Shown here: in pieces, positions 27,413 through 57,700 of the stretch
How positions within the stretch are numbered: the stretch's first letter is position 1
How the letters are laid out: every line of letters starts with the position of its first letter
Assembly: GCA_900540085.1 (NCBI GenBank)
Contig: UQEU01000002.1
Coordinates: 20,833-84,832, forward strand
Source: an uncultured Eubacteriales bacterium
Lineage (GTDB): Bacteria; Bacillota; Clostridia; Oscillospirales; Acutalibacteraceae
Direction: 5' to 3'
Length of the DNA stretch: 64,000 nt
Translations under genes and position numbers: made by a program
The notes under the pieces: model-generated
Told to the model about the DNA's origin: nothing
The model's input: the letters and a program-made list of their open reading frames with translations, nothing else
Databases searched by the model: none

Positions 27413-27490
27413 CGAGGTGTAGCGAAGTTTGGCTATCGCACCTGCTTTGGGAGCAGGGGATCGCAGGTTCGAATCCTGTCACCTCGACCA
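27413..27490 (+). tRNA. tRNA-Pro (anticodon UGG)
   Basis: Cloverleaf: acceptor CGAGGTG/CACCTCG. Anticodon stem CCTGC/GCAGG with loop TTTGGGA (anticodon TGG). T-arm GGTTCGAATCC. 3' CCA encoded. Confidence 0.9.
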
Positions 27491-35752: not shown

Positions 35753-38700
35753 CTATATATAATCGTGATTAACAAAACGAATTGAAACCTCCATTATAAA
35801 AATGGCTACATCAGCAATAAAATTATATACACCTGGTATATCCGGAATAAATATATTCACCAATGAAACTATAGCATTTGTAAAAGATAAGGTAAATGAT
35901 TGCCAATCATTATAAATTCCTTCTACATAATCATCATTTATAGAGACCATATCAATGATTAAACCAATAAAAGGAGCAATATTTGTTTTTTCAAAATTTG
36001 GTTTAAATTTTTTTATAATATCCATAAATTCATCTTTAGGGTTATCTATAAAGTTATGAACAATATCAGTAAATGAGTTATTAAGTATTAAATCAAATCC
36101 AGATGAAAATAAATGATTAAACGCAGTTGTAAAAAATAAAGTTGCGTTCTCCATAAATTTTTTCGAAGCACTTTCCAAACCATCAAACCATTCATTAAAA
36201 TTAAATGTTTTGTCAACTAATTTAATAATATGTTCAAATATGTTTGTAAAAGTATCAATTTCAATTGCTACGCATAACCCTCTTAATGCTGCCTCAAACC
36301 AATTTGTTGTTTTATAAAATCCTGTCGGGTCAATAAAATTGATAGGGTCATTTTGACAGTATATAAAAATATTTATTCCGAGCAAAGTGTCAATACTTAC
36401 AAGAGATAATATATCGGCATTGATAAACCTGCAAATATTCGGGTCGTAGTAGCGTGACTGAAGATAGTAGTACCCTGTTTCGTTGTCGTAGTAGTAGCCA
36501 CGATAACGCAGTGGGTTGGCTTCTGCTATCTCCAAATCGCCCGTAATATCTAATATTTCGCCCCAATCACCGTAAACATATTCGCAGACGATTTTACCGT
36601 CTTCATCAGCCAAAGCAACTATATCGCCTAGTTGGTTTGTAATATAATAATATTGAATATGATTATAAACCAAGCCGAGAGGTGTGCCGTTTTCAGCGTA
36701 TTGAAAATAAATAGAATTGCCGTTTGAGTCTTTTTGTGAAATAAGTTTTCCTTGTTCGTAGTTATAAAATGTTTTGACACCGTTTATATCTTTTAAAATT
36801 CGCATACCGTTGTCATCATAATTATAACTGTACTTATTCTCGCCATCTGTTAACTCAGATAAATATCTTCCTACTTTCCACTTGAACTGTCTGTTCGCAT
36901 AAGAAACAGGATTGCCCATATCGTCGTATGTAATCGGCACTCCGTTTACCGACAACAATCTGTCTTTCCATCCATCCTGTGAATAGGCAAAATCTGACTT
37001 TTCTCCGTTAACACTTTTAGAAACAATATTGCCTCGCTCATCGTACTCATATTCACAATTGATCGTACCGTTGCTTTTAATCAACTGACCTTTTTCATCA
37101 TAAGTATAGTTTTCAATATAATCTAAATCGCCATACTTACTGTTTATTGATACAAGTTTATTATCTTTGTCATAAACAGTCTCAAAACTATATTTTTTCG
37201 ACAGATTTTCATAATAACGATTTACAATATTTCCTTCTTCGTCTATTTTATTATGAGAAGTAAAGGTAACATTGCTTTTTATTCTGCCTAAAACATTGTT
37301 TTCGTTTTCGTCATGCTCAAAATTGTATTCAAAAGATTTCGAAGAATTAGAAGAATTATTTGTTTCGGTTGAATCATTATTTATAATATCTCTTGAAAAA
37401 ACTATGCTGTTTTCACCATGTACAATATGATAAACTTGGCCAAAATGTAAAGATGTGATATCGTCCGGTATATTTTTATCTTTATTAGATTTAGTTACAA
37501 ATACTAAATGAGCTATTTCTTGACTGCCGTTTATTCCTTCACCATATAGTTTTTCTGTACAAGAATAAAAATAGTTCAATAAACTAATTGTTTTTGCGGC
37601 AAGACTTCCGTCACTATTATATTCATATGTAACATCATCTTTTTCATTGCCGTCAAAATATTGTCTGCTTACTTTTCCTTCTAAATATTCATAAGTTCTG
37701 CTTCCGCCGTTTGAGTATTTTTCAGCAATCAAATTAAACTTTTCATCATACTGATATGTTACTGCGGTTTTTCCGCCTATATCAATTTTAGAAACTTCAC
37801 CATGATTTATATAATGGAATTTATAAATGTCAAACTCGGCAAGTTCAAGAGAACCTCTGTCATTGTATGTATATTCGGTAACTTTGCCTAATCTGTTTTT
37901 TACTTTTGCAACCGTTCCGTTTGAATTGTAGGAATAAGTAACGCCTGCATTCTTGTCCGAATATGTATTTGACTCGGGAAGACCGTCTTTTGTTTTGTCA
38001 TAATCTTCAGTTGTTATATACTGTACAACTCTTCCGTATTCATCATATACGGTACGAGATATTTCTCCGTTTTCATTGCTGAAAACTATATTGTTCGCTT
38101 TATCATAAATATATTCAGATTTGTTGTCGCCATTCATTGAAGTAAGAACATTTCCTAGTATATTGTATGTATAATCTACCTTACTTACCGAAGAGCTGTC
38201 AGAATTTTTTGCAGTTAAAGTTGCAATATTGACTACATTACCGTATTCATCATAACTATATGATACAGTTTTATCTGTTTTACTGTCAACAGTTTTTGTG
38301 AGCAGACCGTTATCATAAGTATAACTTATTGTATCAAAGCAAGTCAATGATGAATCATAAACAGCAGGAATTCTGCCTGAATAATTTTCTTTTAATGTTG
38401 CTGAAATAATTAGTTCATTATTATCGTTATATACTGAATAGGTATAATTGTTTCCTGTCTGCTGACGAATCAATTTATCATTCTCATCATACGAATAATA
38501 CAAATCTTCTTCGTTATCATTACTGTGAACTTCCGAAATCAAATTATTGTTTGAATCATATTTATACGATACTTCGTCATCAGTTGTTTTATATAAAACA
38601 AGCCTATTAAATTCATCGTACTGATATTCTGTTTTATTTCCTTTTTCGTCAACTGACGAAACTATGTTAAGAGCATCATTGTAACTGTACAAAACAGTTT

Positions 38701-41626
38701 TTTCTGTTGAATCTTCAATAAAAACAGTTTTATTTTTATTGTCATAAACATAGTCGGTATATGCACCGTTGTCATACTCATATGATGTTACTCTGCCGTC
38801 AGAATTATACTCTATCGACTTATCTGAACTTTTTTTCAAAAGTCCGTTTGAATATGAGTATTTACCGACGGTAACACCTTCTTGGTTTATAACCTCTGAA
38901 AGATTGTTGTTATTGTCATATTCATATTTAATCGTATTGCCTGCGGGGTCTGTAACAGATACTATATTTTTATTTAAATCAAGCGCTAAAACATATTTTC
39001 GTTCAGAACCGTCAGAAATTGTTATTGAAGACTCTTCTCGTGCTATTAATATAGAATCTCCGTACTTACTTTCGACGGACTCAAGTACACCTTCAGAATT
39101 ATAGATATAATTAGTATTTCCAATTTGAATAATATACCCATTTTCACTGACATTGAGTATATAACCGTTTTTATTATCTGTATATACTCCTACGGAAGAT
39201 TTTAAAAACCGGACTCTCATTCCGTTAGTCAAAACAGCAGTATAAATATAATCGCTTTCCTTTGAAACAGTGCTGTCCGTTGAAAAGAACCATTTTTTGT
39301 TTACACTGCTATACTCTCTGACAAAATCAAATGAAACCGTTTTATATTTCATTGAAAAATCAATTGAATTTTCTTTATACTCTCCCAATCGTGAACTGTC
39401 AGGAGTGATTTTTTTACTTACAATTTCATCACTGTCTTCAAATTTAGCATATACAATGCTTTCCTGATAAAGCGGCAATGCAAACGGAACAGTATATTTC
39501 TGCCATTCACCGTTTTCACCTATTTTATACAGTAAATTGTCATCATTATTTCTCGGATTAATTATACCTGTAAGACAACCGTCTGTATATAATTCGGGCT
39601 TTAAGAAATATGATTCATCAGGAGCTATTTTATTAATATCAATTTGAACAGGTTTGGAAATATTACCCGCATTATCTCTTGCATAGATATATACAGTTTG
39701 ATTTTCCGAAAATGTTTTTGTATTTTCAGACTGCCAAGAATAAGCACCCTCAGTACTTGAAAAACTGTAATCTTTAATTCCCGATTCAGAATCGCTTGAG
39801 CTTGCCGTCAGAGTTACTTTATCCATAGTCCATTTTGTCGGATTGCCTGTAACGGACGAAACTGACGGTGCGGTTTTATCTATTTTATTTATTGTTTGTG
39901 TTGAAACAAGACGGATATTTCCCATAGCGTCGCGCACATAAACATAAACAGTACAGTTTGATGAAAATGTTTTGCTGTTGGCTGATTGCCAACTATATGA
40001 ACCTTTTGTTGTTGAAAAAGAATACGGAGAAGAATGAAGTCCTGAACCGCCGTTGTTATCTTTCGCTCCGTTAACTGTCAGAGTAACATTATTTTGTGTC
40101 CAATTTGAAATATTGCCTGTTACACTTGTTACTGTAGGCGCAGTTGTATCATTTGTATAATTAATTACGGTATATGGACGCATTGCAGATGAAGAATATT
40201 GACGGGAAGTAAAAGCACGCCAATTATAGTTTCCGTCAGTTTCTTCTGAACTTTCAAAACAAAAGCCATAGTTTTTATTTGTTCCGTCAGCCCATTTTTG
40301 CACCATATTTGTAATATTAAATTTATACCAATACTTATTATCAGGGTCATCCGTAGATTTACTGTTTATTGTTCTTGTAGTTCCTTTTACAGAGTTATAT
40401 GTAGGTCTTGTTTTCCAAGTAACTTCACCCTCGTACCAAGCGCTTGTTACCATATGAGGCGTAACTTTTGTTGTTGTAGTTCTGCCTGTCGTTTCTCTCT
40501 GCCATGAATAAGCACTGTTTATTACAGCACCTTTTTTAATTTCACTCGGCATAGTAAACTGATTTAATACTCTGCCGTAGCCGTACTCGGAAGCTCGTCC
40601 GAAACAACAAGTTTCTTCTTTGCCGTAACATATAGACGCACTTGTACTTTTATTGTATATACCTGCGTCTCTGTAATTGCCTAATTGACTTGTAGTAGGG
40701 TCAATGACTACGGGGTATTTTGTGCTGTCGCTCGTAAACCATTCATTAGGAACGGTTATTGTCATTATATAAGATGTTTCATCTTTATCTATGAGAGAGT
40801 ATTCACAATCAACATAATGTGAATTTAAATCTCCCTCTACATATTCGCTGTCGTAAGCGAACGGAGCGGTAAAGGTCTGAATAACGGTATCATCATTATT
40901 AATGATAGAAATAGTGCCGTCTTCATTGAGTTTAGCCGTACAATTGTTTGTTTTTAATTCAAATGAAAATGAGTTTTTATTAATATTTCGATTAAGCACA
41001 ATTTCATCTTTAAGACCGTTTAATTGAGGATAAAATCGCAAATTTGTTCCTTCACCGTAAATATTTTCATATTGAAAAACTTCAAATTTTTCGTTTGAAA
41101 ATTCTGCTACAGATTCAGTACCCTCTGCTTTTGTATCGGAATAAGGGACAATAGAATAAGAATAATTACCGATTACTGCTTCTATCCCCTTTGAAGAATC
41201 TTTTGAAAAATTTATCCTGTAATCGTTTTGTCCGTTTGTGTAATCATAGCCATTATCTTTTAGTTTTTTATCGGTCTGTTTTTCAACAGATATATCCTTT
41301 GTCTTGAGATTTCCGTTATCGTCAACAAAGGAAATCGGCTCTGAAAACAGATATACGGTATTTGAACCGTCTCGGTTTTCAAGATTTATTGTATGGTCAT
41401 CTGCAAGCATAGCATTTTTGTCAACTGCTGCTGCACCTTCGGTATCAACAATTTCCGAAGCATATGCAGAAAGCATAGACTGAATACCAAGCCATTCTTG
41501 AAGTCTTGAGCTTCCGACTGTCAGTGTTACTATCGTTCCGAAGCCGATAATTACAGCAAGAATGACCGATAGAATCTTTTTCCACGGTTTGTGATTTGTT
41601 GAATTTAATTCATAAAAATCTTCCAT
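35753..41626 (-). CDS. RHS/YD-repeat polymorphic toxin (WapA-like), 1957 aa. N-terminal TM anchor, two tandem Ig-like domains, YD repeats, RHS core ending ...NDPINFIDPTGF, then an uncharacterised C-terminal domain of about 215 aa.
   Basis: Many YD repeats (for example YxYDxxGRL-like: YTYNDRGSL, YQYDEKFNL, YEYDERGNI). RHS-repeat-associated core (YYLQSRYYDPNICRFINADI) and a DPxG cleavage-type motif. RBS AGGAGA 8 nt upstream of the ATG at 41626. Confidence 0.9.
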   Translation of the reverse strand: MEDFYELNSTNHKPWKKILSVILAVIIGFGTIVTLTVGSSRLQEWLGIQSMLSAYASEIVDTEGAAAVDKNAMLADDHTINLENRDGSNTVYLFSEPISFVDDNGNLKTKDISVEKQTDKKLKDNGYDYTNGQNDYRINFSKDSSKGIEAVIGNYSYSIVPYSDTKAEGTESVAEFSNEKFEVFQYENIYGEGTNLRFYPQLNGLKDEIVLNRNINKNSFSFELKTNNCTAKLNEDGTISIINNDDTVIQTFTAPFAYDSEYVEGDLNSHYVDCEYSLIDKDETSYIMTITVPNEWFTSDSTKYPVVIDPTTSQLGNYRDAGIYNKSTSASICYGKEETCCFGRASEYGYGRVLNQFTMPSEIKKGAVINSAYSWQRETTGRTTTTKVTPHMVTSAWYEGEVTWKTRPTYNSVKGTTRTINSKSTDDPDNKYWYKFNITNMVQKWADGTNKNYGFCFESSEETDGNYNWRAFTSRQYSSSAMRPYTVINYTNDTTAPTVTSVTGNISNWTQNNVTLTVNGAKDNNGGSGLHSSPYSFSTTKGSYSWQSANSKTFSSNCTVYVYVRDAMGNIRLVSTQTINKIDKTAPSVSSVTGNPTKWTMDKVTLTASSSDSESGIKDYSFSSTEGAYSWQSENTKTFSENQTVYIYARDNAGNISKPVQIDINKIAPDESYFLKPELYTDGCLTGIINPRNNDDNLLYKIGENGEWQKYTVPFALPLYQESIVYAKFEDSDEIVSKKITPDSSRLGEYKENSIDFSMKYKTVSFDFVREYSSVNKKWFFSTDSTVSKESDYIYTAVLTNGMRVRFLKSSVGVYTDNKNGYILNVSENGYIIQIGNTNYIYNSEGVLESVESKYGDSILIAREESSITISDGSERKYVLALDLNKNIVSVTDPAGNTIKYEYDNNNNLSEVINQEGVTVGKYSYSNGLLKKSSDKSIEYNSDGRVTSYEYDNGAYTDYVYDNKNKTVFIEDSTEKTVLYSYNDALNIVSSVDEKGNKTEYQYDEFNRLVLYKTTDDEVSYKYDSNNNLISEVHSNDNEEDLYYSYDENDKLIRQQTGNNYTYSVYNDNNELIISATLKENYSGRIPAVYDSSLTCFDTISYTYDNGLLTKTVDSKTDKTVSYSYDEYGNVVNIATLTAKNSDSSSVSKVDYTYNILGNVLTSMNGDNKSEYIYDKANNIVFSNENGEISRTVYDEYGRVVQYITTEDYDKTKDGLPESNTYSDKNAGVTYSYNSNGTVAKVKNRLGKVTEYTYNDRGSLELAEFDIYKFHYINHGEVSKIDIGGKTAVTYQYDEKFNLIAEKYSNGGSRTYEYLEGKVSRQYFDGNEKDDVTYEYNSDGSLAAKTISLLNYFYSCTEKLYGEGINGSQEIAHLVFVTKSNKDKNIPDDITSLHFGQVYHIVHGENSIVFSRDIINNDSTETNNSSNSSKSFEYNFEHDENENNVLGRIKSNVTFTSHNKIDEEGNIVNRYYENLSKKYSFETVYDKDNKLVSINSKYGDLDYIENYTYDEKGQLIKSNGTINCEYEYDERGNIVSKSVNGEKSDFAYSQDGWKDRLLSVNGVPITYDDMGNPVSYANRQFKWKVGRYLSELTDGENKYSYNYDDNGMRILKDINGVKTFYNYEQGKLISQKDSNGNSIYFQYAENGTPLGLVYNHIQYYYITNQLGDIVALADEDGKIVCEYVYGDWGEILDITGDLEIAEANPLRYRGYYYDNETGYYYLQSRYYDPNICRFINADILSLVSIDTLLGINIFIYCQNDPINFIDPTGFYKTTNWFEAALRGLCVAIEIDTFTNIFEHIIKLVDKTFNFNEWFDGLESASKKFMENATLFFTTAFNHLFSSGFDLILNNSFTDIVHNFIDNPKDEFMDIIKKFKPNFEKTNIAPFIGLIIDMVSINDDYVEGIYNDWQSFTLSFTNAIVSLVNIFIPDIPGVYNFIADVAIFIMEVSIRFVNHDYI
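39640..40150 (-). repeat. Tandem duplication encoding two Ig-like (Big/He_PIG-type) domains inside the RHS protein
   Basis: Protein segments TAPTVTSVTGNISNWTQNNVTLTVNGAKDNNGGSGLHSSPYSFSTTKGSYSWQSANSKTFSSNCTVYVYVRDAMGNI and TAPSVSSVTGNPTKWTMDKVTLTASSSDSESGIKDYSFSSTEGAYSWQSENTKTFSENQTVYIYARDNAGNI align residue by residue. Confidence 0.6.
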
Positions 41627-41746: not shown

Positions 41747-41798
41747 ATTTTAATAAATAAGAAGACGGTAATTCAACAAAAAAACAAAACTATGCTAT
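41747..41798 (-). promoter_or_regulatory. Putative rhs promoter (-35 TTGAAT, 18 nt, -10 TAAAAT on the minus strand) with an abutting 17-bp motif ATAGCATAGTTTTGTTT that is also found at the agrB-peptide promoter
   Basis: Minus-strand reading: ...tcgtttttATAGCATAGTTTTGTTTttttgTTGAATtaccgtcttcttatttatTAAAATtttt... The motif is at 41782-41798, the -35 at 41771-41776, and the -10 at 41747-41752. Confidence 0.4.
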
Positions 41799-41835: not shown

Positions 41836-43131
41836 TTAAATTTTAAGAAACAGAATTGTTAAATGAAATTTATGTTCTGTATCATTATAAGACCATTCAT
41901 ATTTGCCATTGTTCTTTTTTGCATATTTTTTTATTATTTTTGTACCAAATCCATGGTTACTTTTATCAAATTTTGTTGTAAGTAATTGTTTGCCGGTATG
42001 TTTTGGCGGAAAATCACAGGAATTTACAACATTCAGCAAATCCATATTATTAATATGCCTTAATGAAAATTCAATACTTTTTTCTTTGCTTGATTTTGCA
42101 GCGTCAACAGCATTATCAAGAATGTTGTTAAGAAGTATAGATAATTCAGAATTATCTATATAATCTAAATTTGCAGTTTTTACTTCATAGTCAAATTTAA
42201 TATTATTATTTTTGCAAACAACTATATATTTGCTGATAATTAAATCAAGCATTTTGTTGTTGGATATATTTATAATATTCCTGTTTTGAAATTCAGGATA
42301 AATCTTTTTTATATACGCTTTTACTTCATCTATATTATCAAAACTGCCGATGGTAAGATAGTGATTTTTCGTATCGTGAAACATCATCTGCAATTCGTTG
42401 TTTTGATGTTGTAAAACATCGAGATATGTTTGATTTAAATTATACAGTCTTTTTTCGGACTCCAGCTCATTTATTTTTTCTTCGCGATTGGCAAGTATTT
42501 GGTAATATATAAAAATAAATATACTTGCAATAATATATAGAATACAAACAGCTGTCGTTGCAATTTTGTATGATGTTGATACTTCAAATTCTAATGCAAT
42601 AAATAAAAATATTGTACAGGATAAAATAGTTAATACAGGAAATATAAACAGTGGCAGAAATTGCTTTATTTTATTATTTTTATGTCCTATTTTTATTATT
42701 ATCAATGATAATAATTGAGATAAAATAAAATATACTAATTTACATATTAATACAACGATTATAAGAATATGGACATCATCTTTATATTTATTTGTCGGAA
42801 GTTCAAAAATTGCAGAAAGTTGAAAAATAGTAATTATTTCAGTAGAAAACATAAGAGTATCAAGAATAATGCTTTGAATTGCGGCATTTTTAACTGAAAT
42901 ATCAAAACATAACAGGGCAAATATAAAATTTATTGCAAAAAATACAATTAAATTAATTATTTCATTTTCAAAAAGACTGAATATACATGAACTTGGCAAA
43001 AACAATAATAATCCTATTAAAATAATAAGGAAATTTGGCTTTTGCTTTTTTTCATATATTCTTGTAAAAAAGCAAAACGATATTATCATTTCAAAAAAAT
43101 AAACAAACATCATTACTATAAGTCTTGACAT
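41836..43131 (-). CDS. Sensor histidine kinase, HPK10 (AgrC/ComD-like) subfamily, polytopic N-terminal sensor domain
   Basis: 431 aa. Six or seven N-terminal TM helices. H-box MMFHDTKNHYL. N-box LLNNILDNAVDAA. G-box region HGFGTKIIKKYAKKNNG. ATG overlaps the response-regulator stop (TAATG). Confidence 0.85.
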   Translation of the reverse strand: MSRLIVMMFVYFFEMIISFCFFTRIYEKKQKPNFLIILIGLLLFLPSSCIFSLFENEIINLIVFFAINFIFALLCFDISVKNAAIQSIILDTLMFSTEIITIFQLSAIFELPTNKYKDDVHILIIVVLICKLVYFILSQLLSLIIIKIGHKNNKIKQFLPLFIFPVLTILSCTIFLFIALEFEVSTSYKIATTAVCILYIIASIFIFIYYQILANREEKINELESEKRLYNLNQTYLDVLQHQNNELQMMFHDTKNHYLTIGSFDNIDEVKAYIKKIYPEFQNRNIINISNNKMLDLIISKYIVVCKNNNIKFDYEVKTANLDYIDNSELSILLNNILDNAVDAAKSSKEKSIEFSLRHINNMDLLNVVNSCDFPPKHTGKQLLTTKFDKSNHGFGTKIIKKYAKKNNGKYEWSYNDTEHKFHLTILFLKI

Positions 43132-43844
43132 TATTTACCCTCCATAAAATGCATAAACTTTTGATAAAAATCTGTTTGTCTGTTTCTTGCAATATTTATT
43201 TCATATTTATTGTCAAGAATAATACGCTTTCTTTCATACGATGTGACATAGTTAAAATTTATAATATAACTTTTATGCGGAGATATAAATATCGTGCTCG
43301 CAAGATTATCTTTCCAAAAGTTCATATTATGGTCGGAATGGTATTCTTTATTACAAGTAACAATTTTTGTTTTGCGCTTTTCAATTTCTACAAATATTAT
43401 GTCTTGTGCAGAAATCCGTTCCACCATTCTATTATCCTTTACATAAAAACTGATTGTTGAATTATCAATCCTTTTTATTGCGTCACTCAATCCTCTGTAA
43501 AATCTTTGTGAATCAAGCGGCTTTTCAAAAAAACGAACGGCATTAAGATTTAAAGCATCATCAAGATATTTTTTGTGAGCAGTAACATAAATCAGAATAA
43601 TGTGCGGATTTCTTTTCCTTAATTCTTCGCCGAGTTTTATACCGTTCATATTATCCATTTCGACATCGAGTATCGCAATATCATAATTCATATTACTCGA
43701 GAGCATATCTGACGAATCGCTAAATACACTTTTTTCAAAATCTATATTATTATCTATTGAAAAGAAATCCAAATGCTCAATTATGTTGTTAATATATATT
43801 TGTTCGTCATCACATATTGCGACTTTCAGAATAATCACCACCAA
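43131..43844 (-). CDS. Response regulator, receiver plus LytTR DNA-binding domain (AgrA/ComE-like)
   Basis: Receiver motifs (VAICDDE ... ILDVEM ... KLGEELR) and C-terminal LytTR pattern (...FFEKPLDSQRFYRG ... ISPHKSYIINFNYV). Confidence 0.85.
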   Translation of the reverse strand: MVVIILKVAICDDEQIYINNIIEHLDFFSIDNNIDFEKSVFSDSSDMLSSNMNYDIAILDVEMDNMNGIKLGEELRKRNPHIILIYVTAHKKYLDDALNLNAVRFFEKPLDSQRFYRGLSDAIKRIDNSTISFYVKDNRMVERISAQDIIFVEIEKRKTKIVTCNKEYHSDHNMNFWKDNLASTIFISPHKSYIINFNYVTSYERKRIILDNKYEINIARNRQTDFYQKFMHFMEGK

Positions 43845-43876
43845 AAAATAAAGTCAATAGGCAACGCCTATTGACA
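43841..43876 (-). terminator. Rho-independent terminator downstream of the XRE gene, upstream of the RR-HK operon
   Basis: Perfect 10-bp stem GTCAATAGGC-aac-GCCTATTGAC, with a T-run on the minus strand. Confidence 0.65.
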
Positions 43877-43910
43877 AAATAATAACATATAGTCTTAATA
43901 AATACAAATT

Positions 43911-44240
43911 CTATTTTTCCTTGAAATCTATCAATGTGTGTGCAACAGATTCTAAAATAGCTATATCTTTATCAGTACATAAATTCAACAAATCTATTAA
44001 ATTATCTTTAGAATTATCTCTGATATTTCCATAAAGAATATAATCTAATCTTGTGTCCAATCCATCACAAATTGTAATAAGAGTGTTTAAACTATATGAG
44101 CCACCATTTTCAACAGTAGAAATATGAGTTGGTGATATATGTATTTTTTTACCTAAACTTTCCTGTGTCAAATGTTGTTCTTTTCTTAATTTAACAATAT
44201 GGCTGCCAATTTTTGTTGTATTGATTTTTATATTACCCAT
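43911..44240 (-). CDS. XRE-family HTH transcriptional regulator
   Basis: HTH_3 (IVKLRKEQHLTQESLGKKIHISPTHISTVENG). The start at MGNIK, downstream of the track ATG, is preferred. Confidence 0.7.
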   Translation of the reverse strand: MGNIKINTTKIGSHIVKLRKEQHLTQESLGKKIHISPTHISTVENGGSYSLNTLITICDGLDTRLDYILYGNIRDNSKDNLIDLLNLCTDKDIAILESVAHTLIDFKEK

Positions 44241-44383
44241 GACATCACCCACAAAAATTATACCATCATACAATAAAAATGTTCTCCTACAATATAGTAT
44301 AACCACTAAAACAGATTGTAATTACAAACTAATTTCAAAGTTTTACTAATTATCAAAATAAATATATTATAAATGCCTTAAAA

Positions 44384-44435
44384 ATAGCATAGTTTTGTTT
44401 CAGATATTGATTCCCGAAAAACTATGCAATATAAT
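44384..44435 (+). promoter_or_regulatory. Promoter of the peptide-agrB operon (-35 TTGATT 44407-44412, 17 nt, -10 TATAAT 44430-44435), preceded by the 17-bp motif ATAGCATAGTTTTGTTT (44384-44400). An inverted partial copy (CTATGCAAT) lies in the spacer.
   Basis: Sequence: aaaaATAGCATAGTTTTGTTTcagataTTGATTcccgaaaaaCTATGCAATATAATtg. The motif is identical to the one next to the rhs -35. Confidence 0.45.
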
Positions 44436-44489
44436 TGTTACAGTTATGGTTAATATTAGTTTTCTGATTAAAAGAAAGGAGTAATTTCT

Positions 44490-44637
44490 ATGAAAAATAT
44501 TAGTTTGAAAAACATATTAAAAAGTGTTGTTATGCTTTCGGTCAAGAACAGTGCAAACAGTACGACAAGCGGAACTGTATATCAACCAAAGGCACCTGTT
44601 GCTTTGAAGAAATTCAGCAAGATTGAGAATGGTAAAT
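44490..44637 (+). CDS. 49-aa peptide, candidate secreted signalling-peptide precursor (AgrD-like position, but lacks Cys)
   Basis: Strong RBS AAAGGAGT 7 nt upstream. MKNISLKNILKSVVMLSVKNSANSTTSGTVYQPKAPVALKKFSKIENGK. The stop overlaps the agrB start by 15 nt. Confidence 0.4.
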
Positions 44638-45213
44638 AAATTATCAACTTATTTTACTGAAAAAATGATTTCAAACGGAACAATAAGTGACAAAGATAAA
44701 GAATTATATATATATGGTTTGTTTATGTTTTTGTCACAACTTATGTTTTTTATTATAGCCTGTATATTCGGTTTTTTATTAAACTGTATTATTGAAAGTA
44801 TTATTTTCTATATTGCATTTCAGTTCATAAGAAAATATGCCGGCGGCTATCACGCAGCAACCGAAACAAGATGCGAAATACTATCAACTCTGTCAATATT
44901 AGCTTGTATTGTTGTAATCAGGTTGTCAAAAACTTATGATTTTCAGACTGTTCTGCTTATTATCAGTGCAGTATCGTCAGTCTGTATATTTGTCTTTTGT
45001 CCGCTTGATACACCTGAAAAGCCCTTATCGAAAAAAGAGTTCAAATATTTCCGTAAAGTTTCTTGGGTTATATTACTTGTGATAAGCATAAATATTATCG
45101 TTTCGTATTTTTTCAAATTTCAAATGGTGCTTGTTCCTTGCTGTTTAAGTTTAATTCTTGAAAGCGTACTGATTGTTGCCGGAAAAATAAAAAAAATTAA
45201 AATATCTTATTAA
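44623..45213 (+). CDS. agrB: AgrB-family membrane peptidase (accessory gene regulator B homolog)
   Basis: 196 aa, 5-6 TM helices. The conserved AgrB catalytic region FQFIRKYAGGYHAATETRCEILS has His and Cys spaced as in S. aureus AgrB H77/C84. Confidence 0.75.
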   Translation: MRMVNKLSTYFTEKMISNGTISDKDKELYIYGLFMFLSQLMFFIIACIFGFLLNCIIESIIFYIAFQFIRKYAGGYHAATETRCEILSTLSILACIVVIRLSKTYDFQTVLLIISAVSSVCIFVFCPLDTPEKPLSKKEFKYFRKVSWVILLVISINIIVSYFFKFQMVLVPCCLSLILESVLIVAGKIKKIKISY

Positions 45214-45243
45214 AAGCAAATTTCATCTAAAGGAATAAAGACT

Positions 45244-45438
45244 ATGAATAACAGCGATTCTTATAGAATTGCAATGCAGGTTACGGAAACCGTTATTTTT
45301 AAAAAAGTGAAGTTGGTTTTTTCGATTTGCCCAAGGTGTAATAAATATCTCGACAGAGAATATATGGTCTTTTGCAGTAACTGCGGTCAAAAATTATCTT
45401 GGAAAGACTTTAACAAAACAAAAATTATATATAAATAA
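45244..45438 (+). CDS. Zinc-ribbon miniprotein (CPRC...CSNC)
   Basis: 64 aa with two CxxC pairs, immediately downstream of agrB. Confidence 0.35.
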   Translation: MNNSDSYRIAMQVTETVIFKKVKLVFSICPRCNKYLDREYMVFCSNCGQKLSWKDFNKTKIIYK

Positions 45439-45576
45439 TTTGACCTGATGATTTTTTTCGTCAGGCTCTTTTTTGTTCTGACTGATGTTGAAACAGATAA
45501 CAACTATAAGAAATCCGACAAAAATCCTCAGCAAAATAACAGAGGATTTGCAATATATTAAATTTTTGTTTTCTAT

Positions 45577-45612
45577 TTACCTATTGACAAGGTAGGTAAA
45601 TAGTGATAGAAT
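45577..45612 (+). promoter_or_regulatory. nifS promoter (-35 TTGACA 45584-45589, 17 nt, -10 TAGAAT 45607-45612) embedded in an inverted repeat TTTACCTA-n8-TAGGTAAA. Candidate Rrf2 operator.
   Basis: Sequence: tttacctattgacaaggtaggtaaatagtgatagaat. A third TAGGTAA half-site is at 45640-45650. Confidence 0.45.
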
Positions 45613-45685
45613 AGCATTTGAAAAAACAGCCTACTTAAATGGTAGGTAATACAAGTTCTATTGAAATCAGACAAGAGGTAGATAT

Positions 45686-47328: not shown

Positions 47329-47389
47329 CGACACAGCATTATTTCATTAAAATTCTGTGATATTTAAAATTCATCAAAGAGGTATTTAT

Positions 47390-47800
47390 ATGAAAATTTC
47401 AACAAAAGGCAGATACGCTCTGCGTGTAATGGCTCAACTTGCAAAAAACGGCAGTGAAAACTATACACCGCTTAAAGAAATTGCCGAAAAAGAAAAAATC
47501 TCTTTAAAATATCTCGAGGGAATAATGACAACGCTCTCAAAAGCCGATTTTGTAAATGCCGTTCACGGTAAAGGCGGCGGATACAAGTTGAGCAAATCGC
47601 CAAAGGAATACACGGTGGGAAGTATTTTGAAATTAACAGAAAAAACTCTTTGCCCCGTTGCCTGTCTTGATGAAAACAACAAACAGTGCAAAATGGCAGA
47701 TGATTGTCTTACCCAGCCCCTTTGGTCAAAACTCAACAAAGTTATAGATGACTTTTTTGAAGAAATTACACTTGATGATTTGGTAAACAGAAAAATTTAA
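47390..47800 (+). CDS. Rrf2-family transcriptional regulator (IscR/CymR-like)
   Basis: MKISTKGRYALRVMAQLA Rrf2 HTH. The start at 47390 is preferred over the track start at 47357. Confidence 0.85.
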   Translation: MKISTKGRYALRVMAQLAKNGSENYTPLKEIAEKEKISLKYLEGIMTTLSKADFVNAVHGKGGGYKLSKSPKEYTVGSILKLTEKTLCPVACLDENNKQCKMADDCLTQPLWSKLNKVIDDFFEEITLDDLVNRKI

Positions 47801-49628: not shown

Positions 49629-49704
49629 TGGTGGGAACAACAGGGCTCGAACCTGTGACCCTCTGCTTGTAAGGCAGATGCTCTCCCAGCTGAGCTATGC
49701 TCCC
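49629..49704 (-). tRNA. tRNA-Val (anticodon UAC)
   Basis: Reverse complement GGGAGCATAGCTCAGCTGGGAGAGCATCTGCCTTACAAGCAGAGGGTCACAGGTTCGAGCCCTGTTGTTCCCACCA. Anticodon loop CTTACAA. CCA encoded. Confidence 0.9.
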
Positions 49705-57345: not shown

Positions 57346-57700
57346 TAAGCTATACCTTCCTTTTTCAAGACTCGCTATTTGGGGCGGAGACACGCTCACT
57401 TTGAAAAGCCCGTAATATGCGGTGTAAATATATTACCACAACAGTCAATACAAGTCAAGCATTTTTTATGTTTTATATTAAAATTAAGTTACTGATAAAC
57501 AAATAATAAATATATATATAAATGATAAGGATATTTTCGCACAATTAAATAAAAAATAATTTATATTGACTTATACTGTTTTTTGTGTTAAACTTATTTC
57601 GCTGTTACGGATTACTCGGTTTCGGGGGCAACCGTTTTCGGACTCACCTGCCCGATACTGTGTTTTTCGCTAAAGCAAATATTTTAATGAGGTGAAAATT

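What the first reader, a model, noticed from the sequence alone, without database searches (positions are those of the whole stretch)
43845..45438. Atypical agr-like locus: peptide gene precedes and overlaps agrB, the candidate autoinducer lacks cysteine, and a zinc-ribbon miniprotein follows agrB
The locus is XRE(-) | LytTR RR(-) | HPK10 kinase(-) and, divergently, a 49-aa ORF(+) whose stop overlaps the start of an AgrB-family gene(+), then a 64-aa CxxC...CxxC protein(+). In canonical agrBDCA the propeptide gene follows agrB, and the AIP ring is made through a Cys (occasionally Ser). Here the only peptide with a strong RBS is upstream of agrB. It has an amphipathic N-terminus (MKNISLKNILKSVVMLSV) and a Ser/Thr-rich centre (NSANSTTSGTVYQ) but no Cys and a basic tail. 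Either it is a lactone-type or linear signal processed by AgrB, or the real signal is something else, for example the downstream zinc-ribbon peptide. Both options are non-standard.
Basis: partly seen in the sequence, partly recalled or inferred. Interest (0 to 1): 0.6.

Follow-up and report, generated by a model that had tools for sequence, protein, structure and literature searches.

The report
Serine-type agr quorum-sensing locus
This is a complete peptide quorum-sensing (agr) locus of an uncultured gut Clostridium whose "odd" features (signal gene before agrB, serine instead of cysteine) are normal for its large clade and already covered by public annotation, so it is an ordinary member of a known kind.

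Summary
The claim that the locus is atypical is not supported.

- **Peptide:** the 49-aa ORF (44490-44639) scores above the curated cut-off of NCBIfam TIGR04223 (AgrD). The identical protein is already named "cyclic lactone autoinducer peptide" in NCBI.
- **Serine:** Ser27 lies in the alignment column where relatives carry the ring cysteine, five residues before an invariant QPKAP motif. In this AgrD subfamily, 36 of 148 cluster representatives have Ser at that position.
- **Gene order:** agrD lies immediately upstream of and overlaps agrB in all 47 related species loci that retain upstream DNA. The same order occurs in the RefSeq-annotated Lachnospira eligens ATCC 27750.
- **Receptor:** kinase identity tracks the peptide ring type and not AgrB. 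This marks the peptide as the kinase's cognate signal.
- **Zinc ribbon:** the 64-aa gene is real and appears co-transcribed, but it occurs in only 4 species lineages (window species, L008, L030, L043) and is not linked to Ser-type peptides. It is not the signal.
- **Extra:** an exact 17-mer sits just upstream of the -35 of both the agrD promoter and the adjacent RHS toxin gene promoter. This suggests the toxin is a quorum-sensing output.

Verdict: new member of a known kind, low-to-moderate interest.

The parts
35753..41626 (-). 1957-aa RHS-repeat protein gene (polymorphic-toxin type). Candidate output gene of the system.
   Evidence: PF05593 RHS_repeat E=4e-34. Its promoter carries the same 17-mer box as the agrD promoter. 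RHS-repeat or large secreted-protein genes follow the kinase gene in many related loci.
41782..41798 (-). Exact copy of the 17-mer box ATAGCATAGTTTTGTTT, just upstream of a TTGAAT-18-TAAAAT promoter-like site of the RHS gene.
   Evidence: There are only two exact copies in the 64-kb window.
41836..43131 (-). AgrC-like sensor histidine kinase, 431 aa: polytopic N-terminal sensor plus GHKL domain.
   Evidence: PF14501 HATPase_c_5 E=6.5e-16. About 6-7 hydrophobic segments lie in residues 1-215. Its identity to relatives tracks the peptide ring type.
43131..43844 (-). AgrA-like response regulator (receiver + LytTR DNA-binding domain). The exact start codon is uncertain (TTG 43844 or GTG 43838).
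   Evidence: PF00072 and PF04397. Gene callers give 235 aa.
43853..43875 (-). Terminator-like hairpin followed by a T-run, between the XRE and regulator genes.
43911..44273 (-). XRE-family HTH regulator, 120 aa with TTG start and AGGAGAA RBS at 44282-44288. Conserved component in most loci of the clade.
   Evidence: PF01381 E=2e-10. Detected in most of the related loci that hold this flank. RBS invariant in alignment A3.
44313..44330 (.). Near-perfect palindrome AGATTGTAATTACAAACT (perfect core TTGTAATTACAA at 44316-44327). Candidate operator for the XRE dimer.
   Evidence: Inverted repeat I1. The palindrome is kept in the five related loci with the SGxx[YF] ring. The link to XRE is inferred only.
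44384..44400 (+). 17-mer box ATAGCATAGTTTTGTTT directly upstream of the -35 element. Candidate promoter-proximal LytTR site.
   Evidence: Lineage-specific variants of the box recur upstream of the gene that follows the kinase in L008, L014, L022 and L026.
44407..44435 (+). Sigma-70-type promoter TTGATT-17-TATAAT of the agrD-agrB-zinc-ribbon operon.
   Evidence: Both hexamers are conserved in all six aligned loci.
44490..44639 (+). agrD: 49-aa autoinducing-peptide precursor. Basic leader (residues 1-21), invariant ANST (22-25), predicted ring S27-G-T-V-Y31, then Q32-P-K-A-P36 and a basic tail.
   Evidence: TIGR04223 at 32.5 bits against a cut-off of 19. Identical protein named cyclic lactone autoinducer peptide. 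Alignments.
44629..45213 (+). agrB: 194-aa membrane cysteine peptidase/cyclase. Its start overlaps the agrD stop by 11 nt.
   Evidence: PF04647 E=8.6e-38. R68, G73, H75 and C82 are invariant in A2 and have the same spacing as S. aureus R70, G75, H77 and C84 (PMC10196373). Multiple hydrophobic segments.
45244..45438 (+). 64-aa Cys4 zinc-ribbon protein. Third gene of the operon, function unknown.
   Evidence: RBS 8 nt upstream and no terminator between it and agrB. 44-53% identical homologues lie in the same slot in L030 and L043. Only weak generic Zn-ribbon HMM hits, below Pfam cut-offs.
45444..45475 (+). Intrinsic-terminator-like hairpin and T-run that end the agrD-agrB-zinc-ribbon unit.

Best explanation
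This is a functional agr-type peptide quorum-sensing locus of the clostridial 'ANST-ring-QPKAP' subfamily, with a serine in the ring-forming position.

Proposed mechanism:
1. A conserved sigma-70 promoter drives agrD-agrB-(zinc-ribbon gene) as one unit. agrB is translationally coupled to agrD through an 11-nt overlap.
2. AgrB (catalytic H75/C82) cleaves AgrD between Y31 and Q32. It transfers the acyl group to the side chain of Ser27, giving a five-residue lactone ring S-G-T-V-Y.
3. An unidentified peptidase trims the leader somewhere in or after the invariant ANST(T) stretch. The exocyclic tail therefore cannot be predicted.
4. The exported peptide is sensed by the divergently encoded polytopic kinase, which phosphorylates the LytTR regulator.
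5. The regulator most likely binds the box just upstream of the -35 of the agrD promoter (autoinduction). It most likely also binds the identical box at the neighbouring RHS polymorphic-toxin gene (output).
6. The XRE protein probably adds repression through the palindrome in the divergent region.
7. The zinc-ribbon protein is a lineage-specific, co-induced small intracellular protein, not the signal.

Shown: family memberships, residue homologies, gene order, conservation, signal-receptor co-variation, and the shared box. Inferred: lactone chemistry, cleavage sites, who binds which DNA element, and regulation of the RHS gene.
For: **AgrD identity**
- HMM hit above the curated cut-off over the whole model.
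- The identical protein is already so named in NCBI.
- Ser27 occupies the same alignment column as the ring Cys of relatives, always five residues before invariant QP..P.
- In 148 cluster representatives of the subfamily that position is Cys 94, Ser 36, Thr 6.
- There is no other AgrD-like ORF in the window.

**AgrB**
- Pfam score 130 bits, with invariant R68/G73/H75/C82 spaced as the S. aureus catalytic set (PMC10196373).

**Gene order and translation**
- 47 species loci have agrD directly upstream of and overlapping or abutting agrB, and almost all show an SD-like motif before the start.

**Cognate pairing**
- The five related loci with an SGxx[YF] ring have kinases 53-98% identical to the window's. 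Every other locus, Cys- or Ser-type, has about 30-38%.
- AgrB identity is uncorrelated with this grouping. L009 has AgrB 78% and kinase 34%; L050 has AgrB 50% and kinase 63%.

**Operon structure**
- Conserved promoter, and a terminator only after the zinc-ribbon gene.

**Output**
- An exact 17-mer lies at the same position relative to the -35 in the agrD and RHS promoters.
- Box variants co-vary between the two promoters in L008, L014, L022 and L026.

**Precedent**
- Ser-lactone AIPs have been detected chemically in S. intermedius and C. thermocellum (PMC8251862, PMC5322536).
Against: - No chemistry or expression data exist for this organism. No paper on this clade's agr system turned up in the held library.
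- A simple hydrophobic-moment test does not show the leader to be amphipathic.
- The residues after the cleavage site are Q-P-K and the tail is basic. In S. aureus, acidic D33/E34 are needed for cleavage (PMC10196373).
- The upstream partner of the putative LytTR box is weak in the window (AAATG against TTTTG, 22 bp apart).
- The own-locus versus cross-locus box comparison over all 20 loci is only marginally better than background (mean 11.85 against 11.29 of 14).
- If the mature peptide has no exocyclic tail, the fate of a serine lactone (possible O-to-N shift to a lactam) is unresolved (PMC8251862).
Confidence: 0.82

Rival explanations
1. The 49-aa peptide is processed by AgrB, but the active signal is not a lactone. 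It could be a linear peptide released by hydrolysis of the acyl-enzyme. If the leader is cut directly before Ser27, it could be a head-to-tail lactam formed by O-to-N acyl shift, analogous to the clostridial cAIPs.
For: Tail-free thiolactone AIPs of Ruminiclostridium rearrange to homodetic cyclopeptides, and the fate of tail-free serine lactones is stated to be open (PMC8251862). The N-terminal cleavage site cannot be derived from the sequence here.
Against: The invariant ANST(T) block directly before the ring suggests a conserved processing site that may leave an exocyclic tail, which would block rearrangement. The C. thermocellum Ser peptide was detected as the lactone form (PMC5322536). Oxygen esters rearrange much less readily than thioesters (general chemistry, my own knowledge).
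Confidence: 0.12
2. The real signal is the downstream 64-aa zinc-ribbon miniprotein, or it is an essential maturation factor for Cys-free AgrD.
For: It is co-transcribed with agrDB, with its own RBS and no intervening terminator. It is conserved at 44-53% identity in the same slot in two distant loci.
Against: - It is present in only 4 species lineages (window species, L008, L030, L043). It is absent from L014, L022, L026 and L050, which share the window's ring type, and present in two Cys-type loci.
- It has four invariant zinc-ligand cysteines, no hydrophobic or signal segment, and no AgrD motif.
- Kinase identity tracks the AgrD ring instead.
- In 18 other loci the slot after agrB holds an XRE-type regulator gene, which suggests a regulatory cargo position.
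Confidence: 0.03
3. The 49-aa ORF is a spurious or untranslated ORF, and AgrB here is an orphan or uses a precursor encoded elsewhere.
For: Only 64 kb of the genome is visible, so a second agrD elsewhere cannot be excluded.
Against: An HMM match above the curated cut-off, an SD-like motif before the start in almost all loci, a conserved reading frame, and conserved motifs across 47 species and 207 cluster representatives. There is no other AgrD-like ORF in the window.
Confidence: 0.01

Closest known systems
agr locus on the 627-kb plasmid of Lachnospira ([Eubacterium]) eligens ATCC 27750 (NC_012780, EUBELI_RS14020/RS10685)
   Same: RefSeq already annotates a 49-aa 'AgrD family cyclic lactone autoinducer peptide' directly upstream of AgrB, with a 1-nt overlap. 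It has no cysteine (…SSANESSSLVFSQPVEPAELKKFKKVR) and a basic tail. The pair is divergent from HTH regulators and has a GHKL kinase and a LytTR regulator next to it.
   Different: AgrB is only about 28% identical to the window's. The kinase and regulator lie downstream and convergent rather than beyond the XRE gene. One extra residue sits between the aromatic residue and QP. As far as I could find, it is not experimentally characterised either.
Staphylococcus intermedius/pseudintermedius AIP (serine lactone)
   Same: Serine replaces the ring cysteine, giving a lactone made by an AgrB with a normal catalytic Cys. It is sensed by an AgrC/AgrA pair (Ji et al. 2005, as cited in PMC12180512 and PMC8251862).
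   Different: Canonical agrBDCA operon with RNAIII and an acidic AgrD tail. Here the order is D-B, divergent from XRE-A-C, the tail is basic, and no RNAIII was found.
Clostridium (Hungateiclostridium) thermocellum AgrD Clo1313_2818
   Same: A clostridial AgrD with a Ser-x3-aromatic ring before a conserved Pro. The cyclic lactone pentapeptide was detected by LC-MS/MS (PMC5322536).
   Different: That gene is an orphan with no adjacent agrB, agrC or agrA. The window has the full set of partners.
Staphylococcus aureus agrBDCA / RNAIII system
   Same: The same four protein families and the same catalytic residues in AgrB. Regulator sites lie just upstream of the -35 of an autoinduced promoter (PMC4227749, PMC10196373).
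   Different: Different gene order and operon structure. An extra XRE regulator and an extra zinc-ribbon gene are present. The signal has a Ser ring and a basic tail. There is no RNAIII, and the likely output is an adjacent RHS toxin gene.
Ruminiclostridium cellulolyticum Rc-AIP1 (cAIP)
   Same: A clostridial AgrBD pair making a five-residue ring from a precursor with a conserved Pro after the ring (PMC8251862).
   Different: That precursor is Cys-based and the thiolactone rearranges to a lactam. Whether a serine analogue does so is unknown.

Membership tests
AgrD (NCBIfam TIGR04223, cyclic lactone autoinducer peptide) | Scores above the curated cut-off of the family HMM over most of the model | tested here: met
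   32.5 bits against a cut-off of 19, E=6.7e-8, model positions 3-38 of 38. There is no Pfam AgrD hit.
AgrD (NCBIfam TIGR04223, cyclic lactone autoinducer peptide) | Small (about 40-55 aa) peptide gene adjacent to an agrB gene | tested here: met
   49 aa, overlapping the agrB start. The same holds in 47 related species loci.
AgrD (NCBIfam TIGR04223, cyclic lactone autoinducer peptide) | Ring nucleophile (Cys, or Ser in some members) five residues before the AgrB cleavage site, followed by a conserved Pro / PxxP | tested here: met
   S27-G-T-V-Y31 followed by Q-P33-K-A-P36. Ser27 aligns with the Cys of relatives.
AgrD (NCBIfam TIGR04223, cyclic lactone autoinducer peptide) | N-terminal amphipathic leader helix | tested here: inconclusive
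   The leader is basic (+4) and of mixed polarity. The maximum helical hydrophobic moment is only 0.27 and is not above shuffles.
AgrD (NCBIfam TIGR04223, cyclic lactone autoinducer peptide) | Acidic C-terminal recognition tail (staphylococcal type; D33/E34 essential in S. aureus) | tested here: not met
   The tail QPKAPVALKKFSKIENGK has net charge +4. A basic tail is conserved throughout this clostridial subfamily, so this feature defines the staphylococcal type and not the family.
AgrD (NCBIfam TIGR04223, cyclic lactone autoinducer peptide) | Matured to a secreted cyclic (thio)lactone peptide | not testable with these tools
   Needs mass spectrometry of supernatant or heterologous agrDB expression.
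AgrB (Pfam PF04647) | HMM match above the gathering score | tested here: met
   130 bits against 23, model positions 2-181 of 185.
AgrB (Pfam PF04647) | Catalytic residues equivalent to S. aureus R70, G75, H77, C84 | tested here: met
   R68, G73, H75 and C82 have identical spacing and are invariant in 19 homologues. The residue roles come from PMC10196373. Equivalence rests on spacing and the Pfam match, because no pairwise alignment to the S. aureus protein was run.
AgrB (Pfam PF04647) | Polytopic membrane protein | tested here: met
   Several hydrophobic segments above the Kyte-Doolittle threshold between residues 25 and 187.
Canonical staphylococcal-type agr locus (agrBDCA + RNAIII) | Gene order B-D-C-A in one operon | tested here: not met
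   The order is agrD-agrB on the + strand, divergent from XRE, then the agrA-like and agrC-like genes on the - strand.
Canonical staphylococcal-type agr locus (agrBDCA + RNAIII) | Divergent RNAIII effector RNA | tested here: not met
   The Rfam gathering-threshold scan of the whole window gave only two tRNAs and an L21 leader.
Canonical staphylococcal-type agr locus (agrBDCA + RNAIII) | Polytopic kinase with an AgrC-type GHKL domain, plus a receiver-LytTR regulator | tested here: met
   PF14501, PF00072 and PF04397. About 6-7 hydrophobic segments lie in the first 215 residues of the kinase.
Canonical staphylococcal-type agr locus (agrBDCA + RNAIII) | Pair of direct repeats, about 21-22 bp centre to centre, immediately upstream of the autoinduced promoter | tested here: inconclusive
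   A conserved box abuts the -35 and recurs at the RHS promoter. The RHS promoter has TTTTG repeated 22 bp apart (read by eye). The upstream half-site at PagrD is weak. Several relatives show 21-22 bp repeats at the same place.

The most novel reading that the evidence does not exclude
The locus may be a pherotype-gated antagonism module. A serine-lactone peptide and its co-evolving kinase/regulator/XRE block form a specificity cassette that recombines independently of AgrB. Through a shared LytTR box, this cassette would switch on the adjacent RHS polymorphic-toxin gene at high density of kin. The variable third gene of the agrDB operon (here the zinc-ribbon protein, elsewhere an XRE regulator) would be a co-induced regulator. 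That would make agr signalling a widespread controller of interbacterial toxin deployment in uncultured gut Clostridia.
Probability: 0.35. Interest if true: 0.55.

Novelty: new member of a known kind. Interest (0 to 1): 0.28.

Why it matters
For the finding as stated, it matters little. It adds one more uncharacterised member to a well-populated, already annotated AgrD/AgrB subfamily, and it removes the impression that the locus is anomalous.

Three by-products could interest people who work on peptide signalling in gut anaerobes:
- **Serine is common here.** Ser (about a quarter of clusters), and apparently Thr, occupy the ring position in this clostridial subfamily. The literature calls this rare.
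- **Signal and receptor travel together.** The signal and its receptor block co-vary as a unit that is decoupled from AgrB. This resembles staphylococcal agr specificity groups and identifies the ligand-receptor pair without experiments.
- **A testable output.** A shared promoter box links the system to a neighbouring RHS toxin gene, giving a concrete hypothesis for what these commensal agr systems control.

Tried and rejected
- **Pfam scan of the 49-aa ORF:** no hit. Only the NCBIfam model recognises it.
- **Solved structures:** no PDB relative of this AgrB by sequence.
- **Zinc-ribbon protein, homology:** the word-indexed search found only two near-identical clusters. Pfam, NCBIfam and PHROGs give only generic zinc-ribbon matches, below cut-off where cut-offs exist.
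- **Zinc-ribbon protein, structure:** the AlphaFold2 model had pLDDT 55 and pTM 0.33, too poor for a fold search, so none was run.
- **Inverted repeat 44384-44396 / 44418-44430** around the -35: rejected as a conserved operator, because the right arm is not kept in related loci.
- **Generic 18-24 bp direct-repeat search upstream of agrD:** no clean repeat pair in the window itself, only in several relatives.
- **Box sharing across all 20 loci** that have a large gene after the kinase: only marginally above the cross-locus background. I therefore rely on the window and its SGxx[YF]-ring relatives.
- **Literature on D-before-B order and on agr in this clade:** nothing specific found. 'agrACDB' of C. 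difficile is just the canonical order read backwards; that reading is my own, from locus-tag order recalled from memory.
- **Supplementary data of the human-microbiome RiPP paper:** not held, so I could not check whether this AIP family was among those synthesised.
- **Rfam:** no RNAIII-like or other regulatory RNA at the locus.
Full report
**What is there.** On the minus strand lie three genes:
- a 431-aa kinase with an AgrC-type GHKL domain (41836-43131; PF14501);
- a receiver+LytTR regulator (43131-43844);
- an XRE-type HTH gene (43911-44273; TTG start, with a conserved AGGAGAA RBS).

A terminator-like hairpin separates the XRE gene from the regulator gene. Divergently, on the plus strand, lie three more genes:
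- a 49-aa ORF (44490-44639) with AAAGGAG 8 nt before its ATG;
- AgrB (ATG 44629 to 45213; PF04647, 130 bits), whose start overlaps the peptide's stop by 11 nt;
- after a 30-nt gap with its own RBS, a 64-aa ORF (45244-45438) carrying CPRC...CSNC.

A promoter-like TTGATT-17-TATAAT site lies at 44407-44435. The only terminator-like hairpin on this strand follows the 64-aa ORF (45444-45465 plus T-run). The three genes therefore look like one transcription unit.

**The 49-aa ORF is an AgrD.** Pfam has no hit. NCBIfam TIGR04223 ('AgrD family cyclic lactone autoinducer peptide') matches over the whole model at 32.5 bits against a curated cut-off of 19. The identical protein is present in public data on many contigs and carries the NCBI name 'cyclic lactone autoinducer peptide'.

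Aligned with 22 database relatives, the peptide shows an invariant A22-N-S-T25 block and an invariant Q32-P33...P36...K40-K-F-S-K44. The position five residues before Q-P is Ser in some members and Cys in others. Ser27 is thus the positional equivalent of the thiolactone cysteine, and the predicted ring is S-G-T-V-Y.

It is not peculiar to this locus.

**How unusual is serine?**
- Among the 47 species loci found through AgrB, about 37 have Cys and 10 have Ser at that position.
- An exhaustive profile search of 1.84 billion cluster representatives found 207 clusters at E<=0.001. Among the 148 short representatives I could parse, the position is Cys in 94, Ser in 36 and Thr in 6. In most of the remainder a Cys sits one residue earlier.
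- Serine lactone AIPs are documented in S. intermedius and C. thermocellum and are described as rare (PMC8251862, PMC5322536).

In this subfamily serine is simply a common alternative.

**How unusual is the gene order?** A scan of one genome per species with an AgrB alignment returned 49 loci. They are labelled Eubacterium sp., Ca. Fimenecus, Acutalibacteraceae and similar, with AgrB identity from 96% down to 46%.
- All 47 loci that retain upstream DNA have an AgrD-HMM ORF directly upstream of agrB, overlapping or abutting it. Those that also hold the far flank have the same divergent XRE/regulator/kinase block.
- Almost all of these agrD ORFs show an SD-like purine-rich motif before the chosen start.
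- Outside the clade, the RefSeq annotation of Lachnospira eligens ATCC 27750 shows the same thing. Its 49-aa AgrD has no cysteine and a basic tail, ends 1 nt into agrB, and is divergent from HTH regulators.
- Monoglobus and Paraclostridium plasmids have the classical B-then-D order with the same QPK(A/V)P motif.

Both orders therefore coexist in Clostridia, and the D-B order is already represented in curated annotation.

**Is the peptide the ligand of the neighbouring kinase?** Pairwise identities give an internal test.
- The five related loci whose ring is SGxx[YF] (L008, L014, L022, L026, L050) have kinases 53-98% identical to the window's, regulators 61-95% identical, and XRE proteins 57-98% identical.
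- Every other locus, Cys- or Ser-type, has a kinase at about 30-38%.
- AgrB identity does not follow this split. L009 has AgrB 78% and kinase 34%; L050 has AgrB 50% and kinase 63%.

The ring sequence and the sensing block thus behave as one specificity cassette, separate from the processing enzyme. This is what is expected of a cognate signal-receptor pair, and it resembles staphylococcal agr groups (the comparison to staphylococci is my inference).

**AgrB.** R68, G73, H75 and C82 are invariant in 19 homologues. They have the same spacing as R70, G75, H77 and C84, the residues required for S. aureus AgrB peptidase activity (PMC10196373). No solved structure is related by sequence. The enzyme looks catalytically competent. 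S. intermedius provides a precedent for a Cys-active-site AgrB making an oxygen ester.

**The zinc-ribbon protein.** It is a real gene. Homologues with 44-53% identity and invariant CPxC...CSxC, REY, QKL.W and a C-terminal I.YK occupy the same slot after agrB in L030 and L043, whose AgrB is only 61-64% identical.

It is nonetheless patchy.
- It occurs in the window species, L008, L030 and L043 only.
- The last two have Cys-type peptides.
- L014, L022, L026 and L050 share the window's ring type and lack it.
- It has no hydrophobic segment and no AgrD motif.
- In 18 other loci the gene that overlaps the end of agrB is instead a second XRE-type regulator. This is often followed by an unrelated 61-aa Cys4 protein and a sigma-70-region-4-like protein.

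I read the position after agrB as a variable slot for small co-induced regulators. That is inference. The AlphaFold model was too poor to use.

**Regulation and output.** Among the six loci with an SGxx[YF] ring (the window and its five relatives), the divergent region keeps four elements:
- the XRE RBS;
- a palindrome (window AGATTGTAATTACAAACT, 44313-44330);
- a box TGCAyAGTTTTG ending 6 nt before the -35;
- both promoter hexamers.

The 17-mer ATAGCATAGTTTTGTTT of that box occurs exactly once more in the 64-kb window. That second copy lies on the minus strand at 41798-41782, again just before a -35 (TTGAAT-18-TAAAAT), upstream of the 1957-aa RHS-repeat protein gene that follows the kinase gene.

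In L008, L014, L022 and L026 the lineage's own variant of the box recurs upstream of the gene that follows the kinase. In L022, for example, GCACAGTTTTG occurs at both places. RHS-repeat or similar large secreted proteins occupy that position in many loci.

AgrA binds direct repeats immediately upstream of P2 and P3 in S. aureus (PMC4227749). The RHS promoter has TTTTG repeated 22 bp apart (read), and several relatives show 21-22 bp repeats at the same place. The upstream half-site at the window's agrD promoter is weak.

I therefore consider two things likely but unproven: that the LytTR regulator autoinduces agrDB, and that it switches on the RHS toxin gene.

**Comparison and verdict.** The system works like agr. 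It contains bona fide AgrD, AgrB, AgrC-like and AgrA-like components.

It is not a canonical agrBDCA/RNAIII locus. The order differs, an XRE regulator and a zinc-ribbon gene are added, and no RNAIII was found.

None of these departures is new to public data. The peptide is already correctly named, and the same architecture is annotated in a reference strain. I found no experimental paper on this clade's system, so it is a new, uncharacterised member of a known kind.

The parts of modest further interest are the high frequency of Ser/Thr rings, the signal-receptor cassette behaviour, and the probable link to an RHS toxin.

Noticed in passing
window 41782-41798 (-) and 44384-44400 (+); RHS gene 35753-41626 (-): An exact 17-mer, ATAGCATAGTTTTGTTT, sits at the same distance from the -35 in the agrD promoter and in the promoter of the adjacent 1957-aa RHS-repeat protein gene. 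Lineage-specific variants of the box recur at both promoters in L008, L014, L022 and L026. This suggests the polymorphic toxin is under agr control.
   Followed up: partly
L008-L056 compared with window 41836-44639: Kinase, regulator and XRE identities track the AgrD ring type: 53-98% kinase identity for the related loci with an SGxx[YF] ring, against about 30-38% for all others. AgrB identity is uncorrelated. This implies recombination between the signal/sensor cassette and the processing enzyme.
   Followed up: partly
cluster representatives P0198, P0203, P0205, P0219, P0234, P0259: Six AgrD-like cluster representatives carry Thr at the ring-nucleophile position (for example SANSAA-TTFMY-QPKKP). 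I know of no described threonine-lactone AIP. Their genomic context was not checked.
   Followed up: no
L009, L010, L012-L014, L017, L018, L022, L023, L026, L029, L032, L041, L046, L049, L053-L055, downstream of agrB: In 18 related loci agrB is followed by an overlapping second XRE-type HTH gene (about 127 aa). This is often followed by an unrelated 61-aa CxxC...CxxC protein and a sigma-70-region-4-like protein. The arrangement resembles the regulatory module of an integrative element.
   Followed up: partly
window 43853-43875 (-): A perfect 10-bp-stem hairpin with a T-run lies between the XRE gene and the regulator gene. XRE may therefore be transcribed separately from the regulator-kinase pair, whose own promoter was not identified.
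   Followed up: no
L017 610-771 and L053 4814-5011: Two Ser-type AgrDs also carry a Cys at ring position 4 (SIFCY, SYLCF). Which residue forms the ring there is unclear.
   Followed up: no
window 45573-45649: Upstream of the cysteine desulfurase (nifS/iscS-like) gene there is a perfect 11-bp inverted repeat (CTATTTACCTA/TAGGTAAATAG) overlapping a strong TTGACA-17-TAGAAT promoter, plus a direct repeat of CCTAyTnAnnnGGTAGGTAA. This is probably the operator of the Rrf2 regulator encoded at 47357-47800.
   Followed up: no
window 49632-49704 (-), 27413-27487 (+), 57358-57433 (-): The Rfam scan found two tRNA genes and a ribosomal protein L21 leader. None is related to the finding.
   Followed up: no
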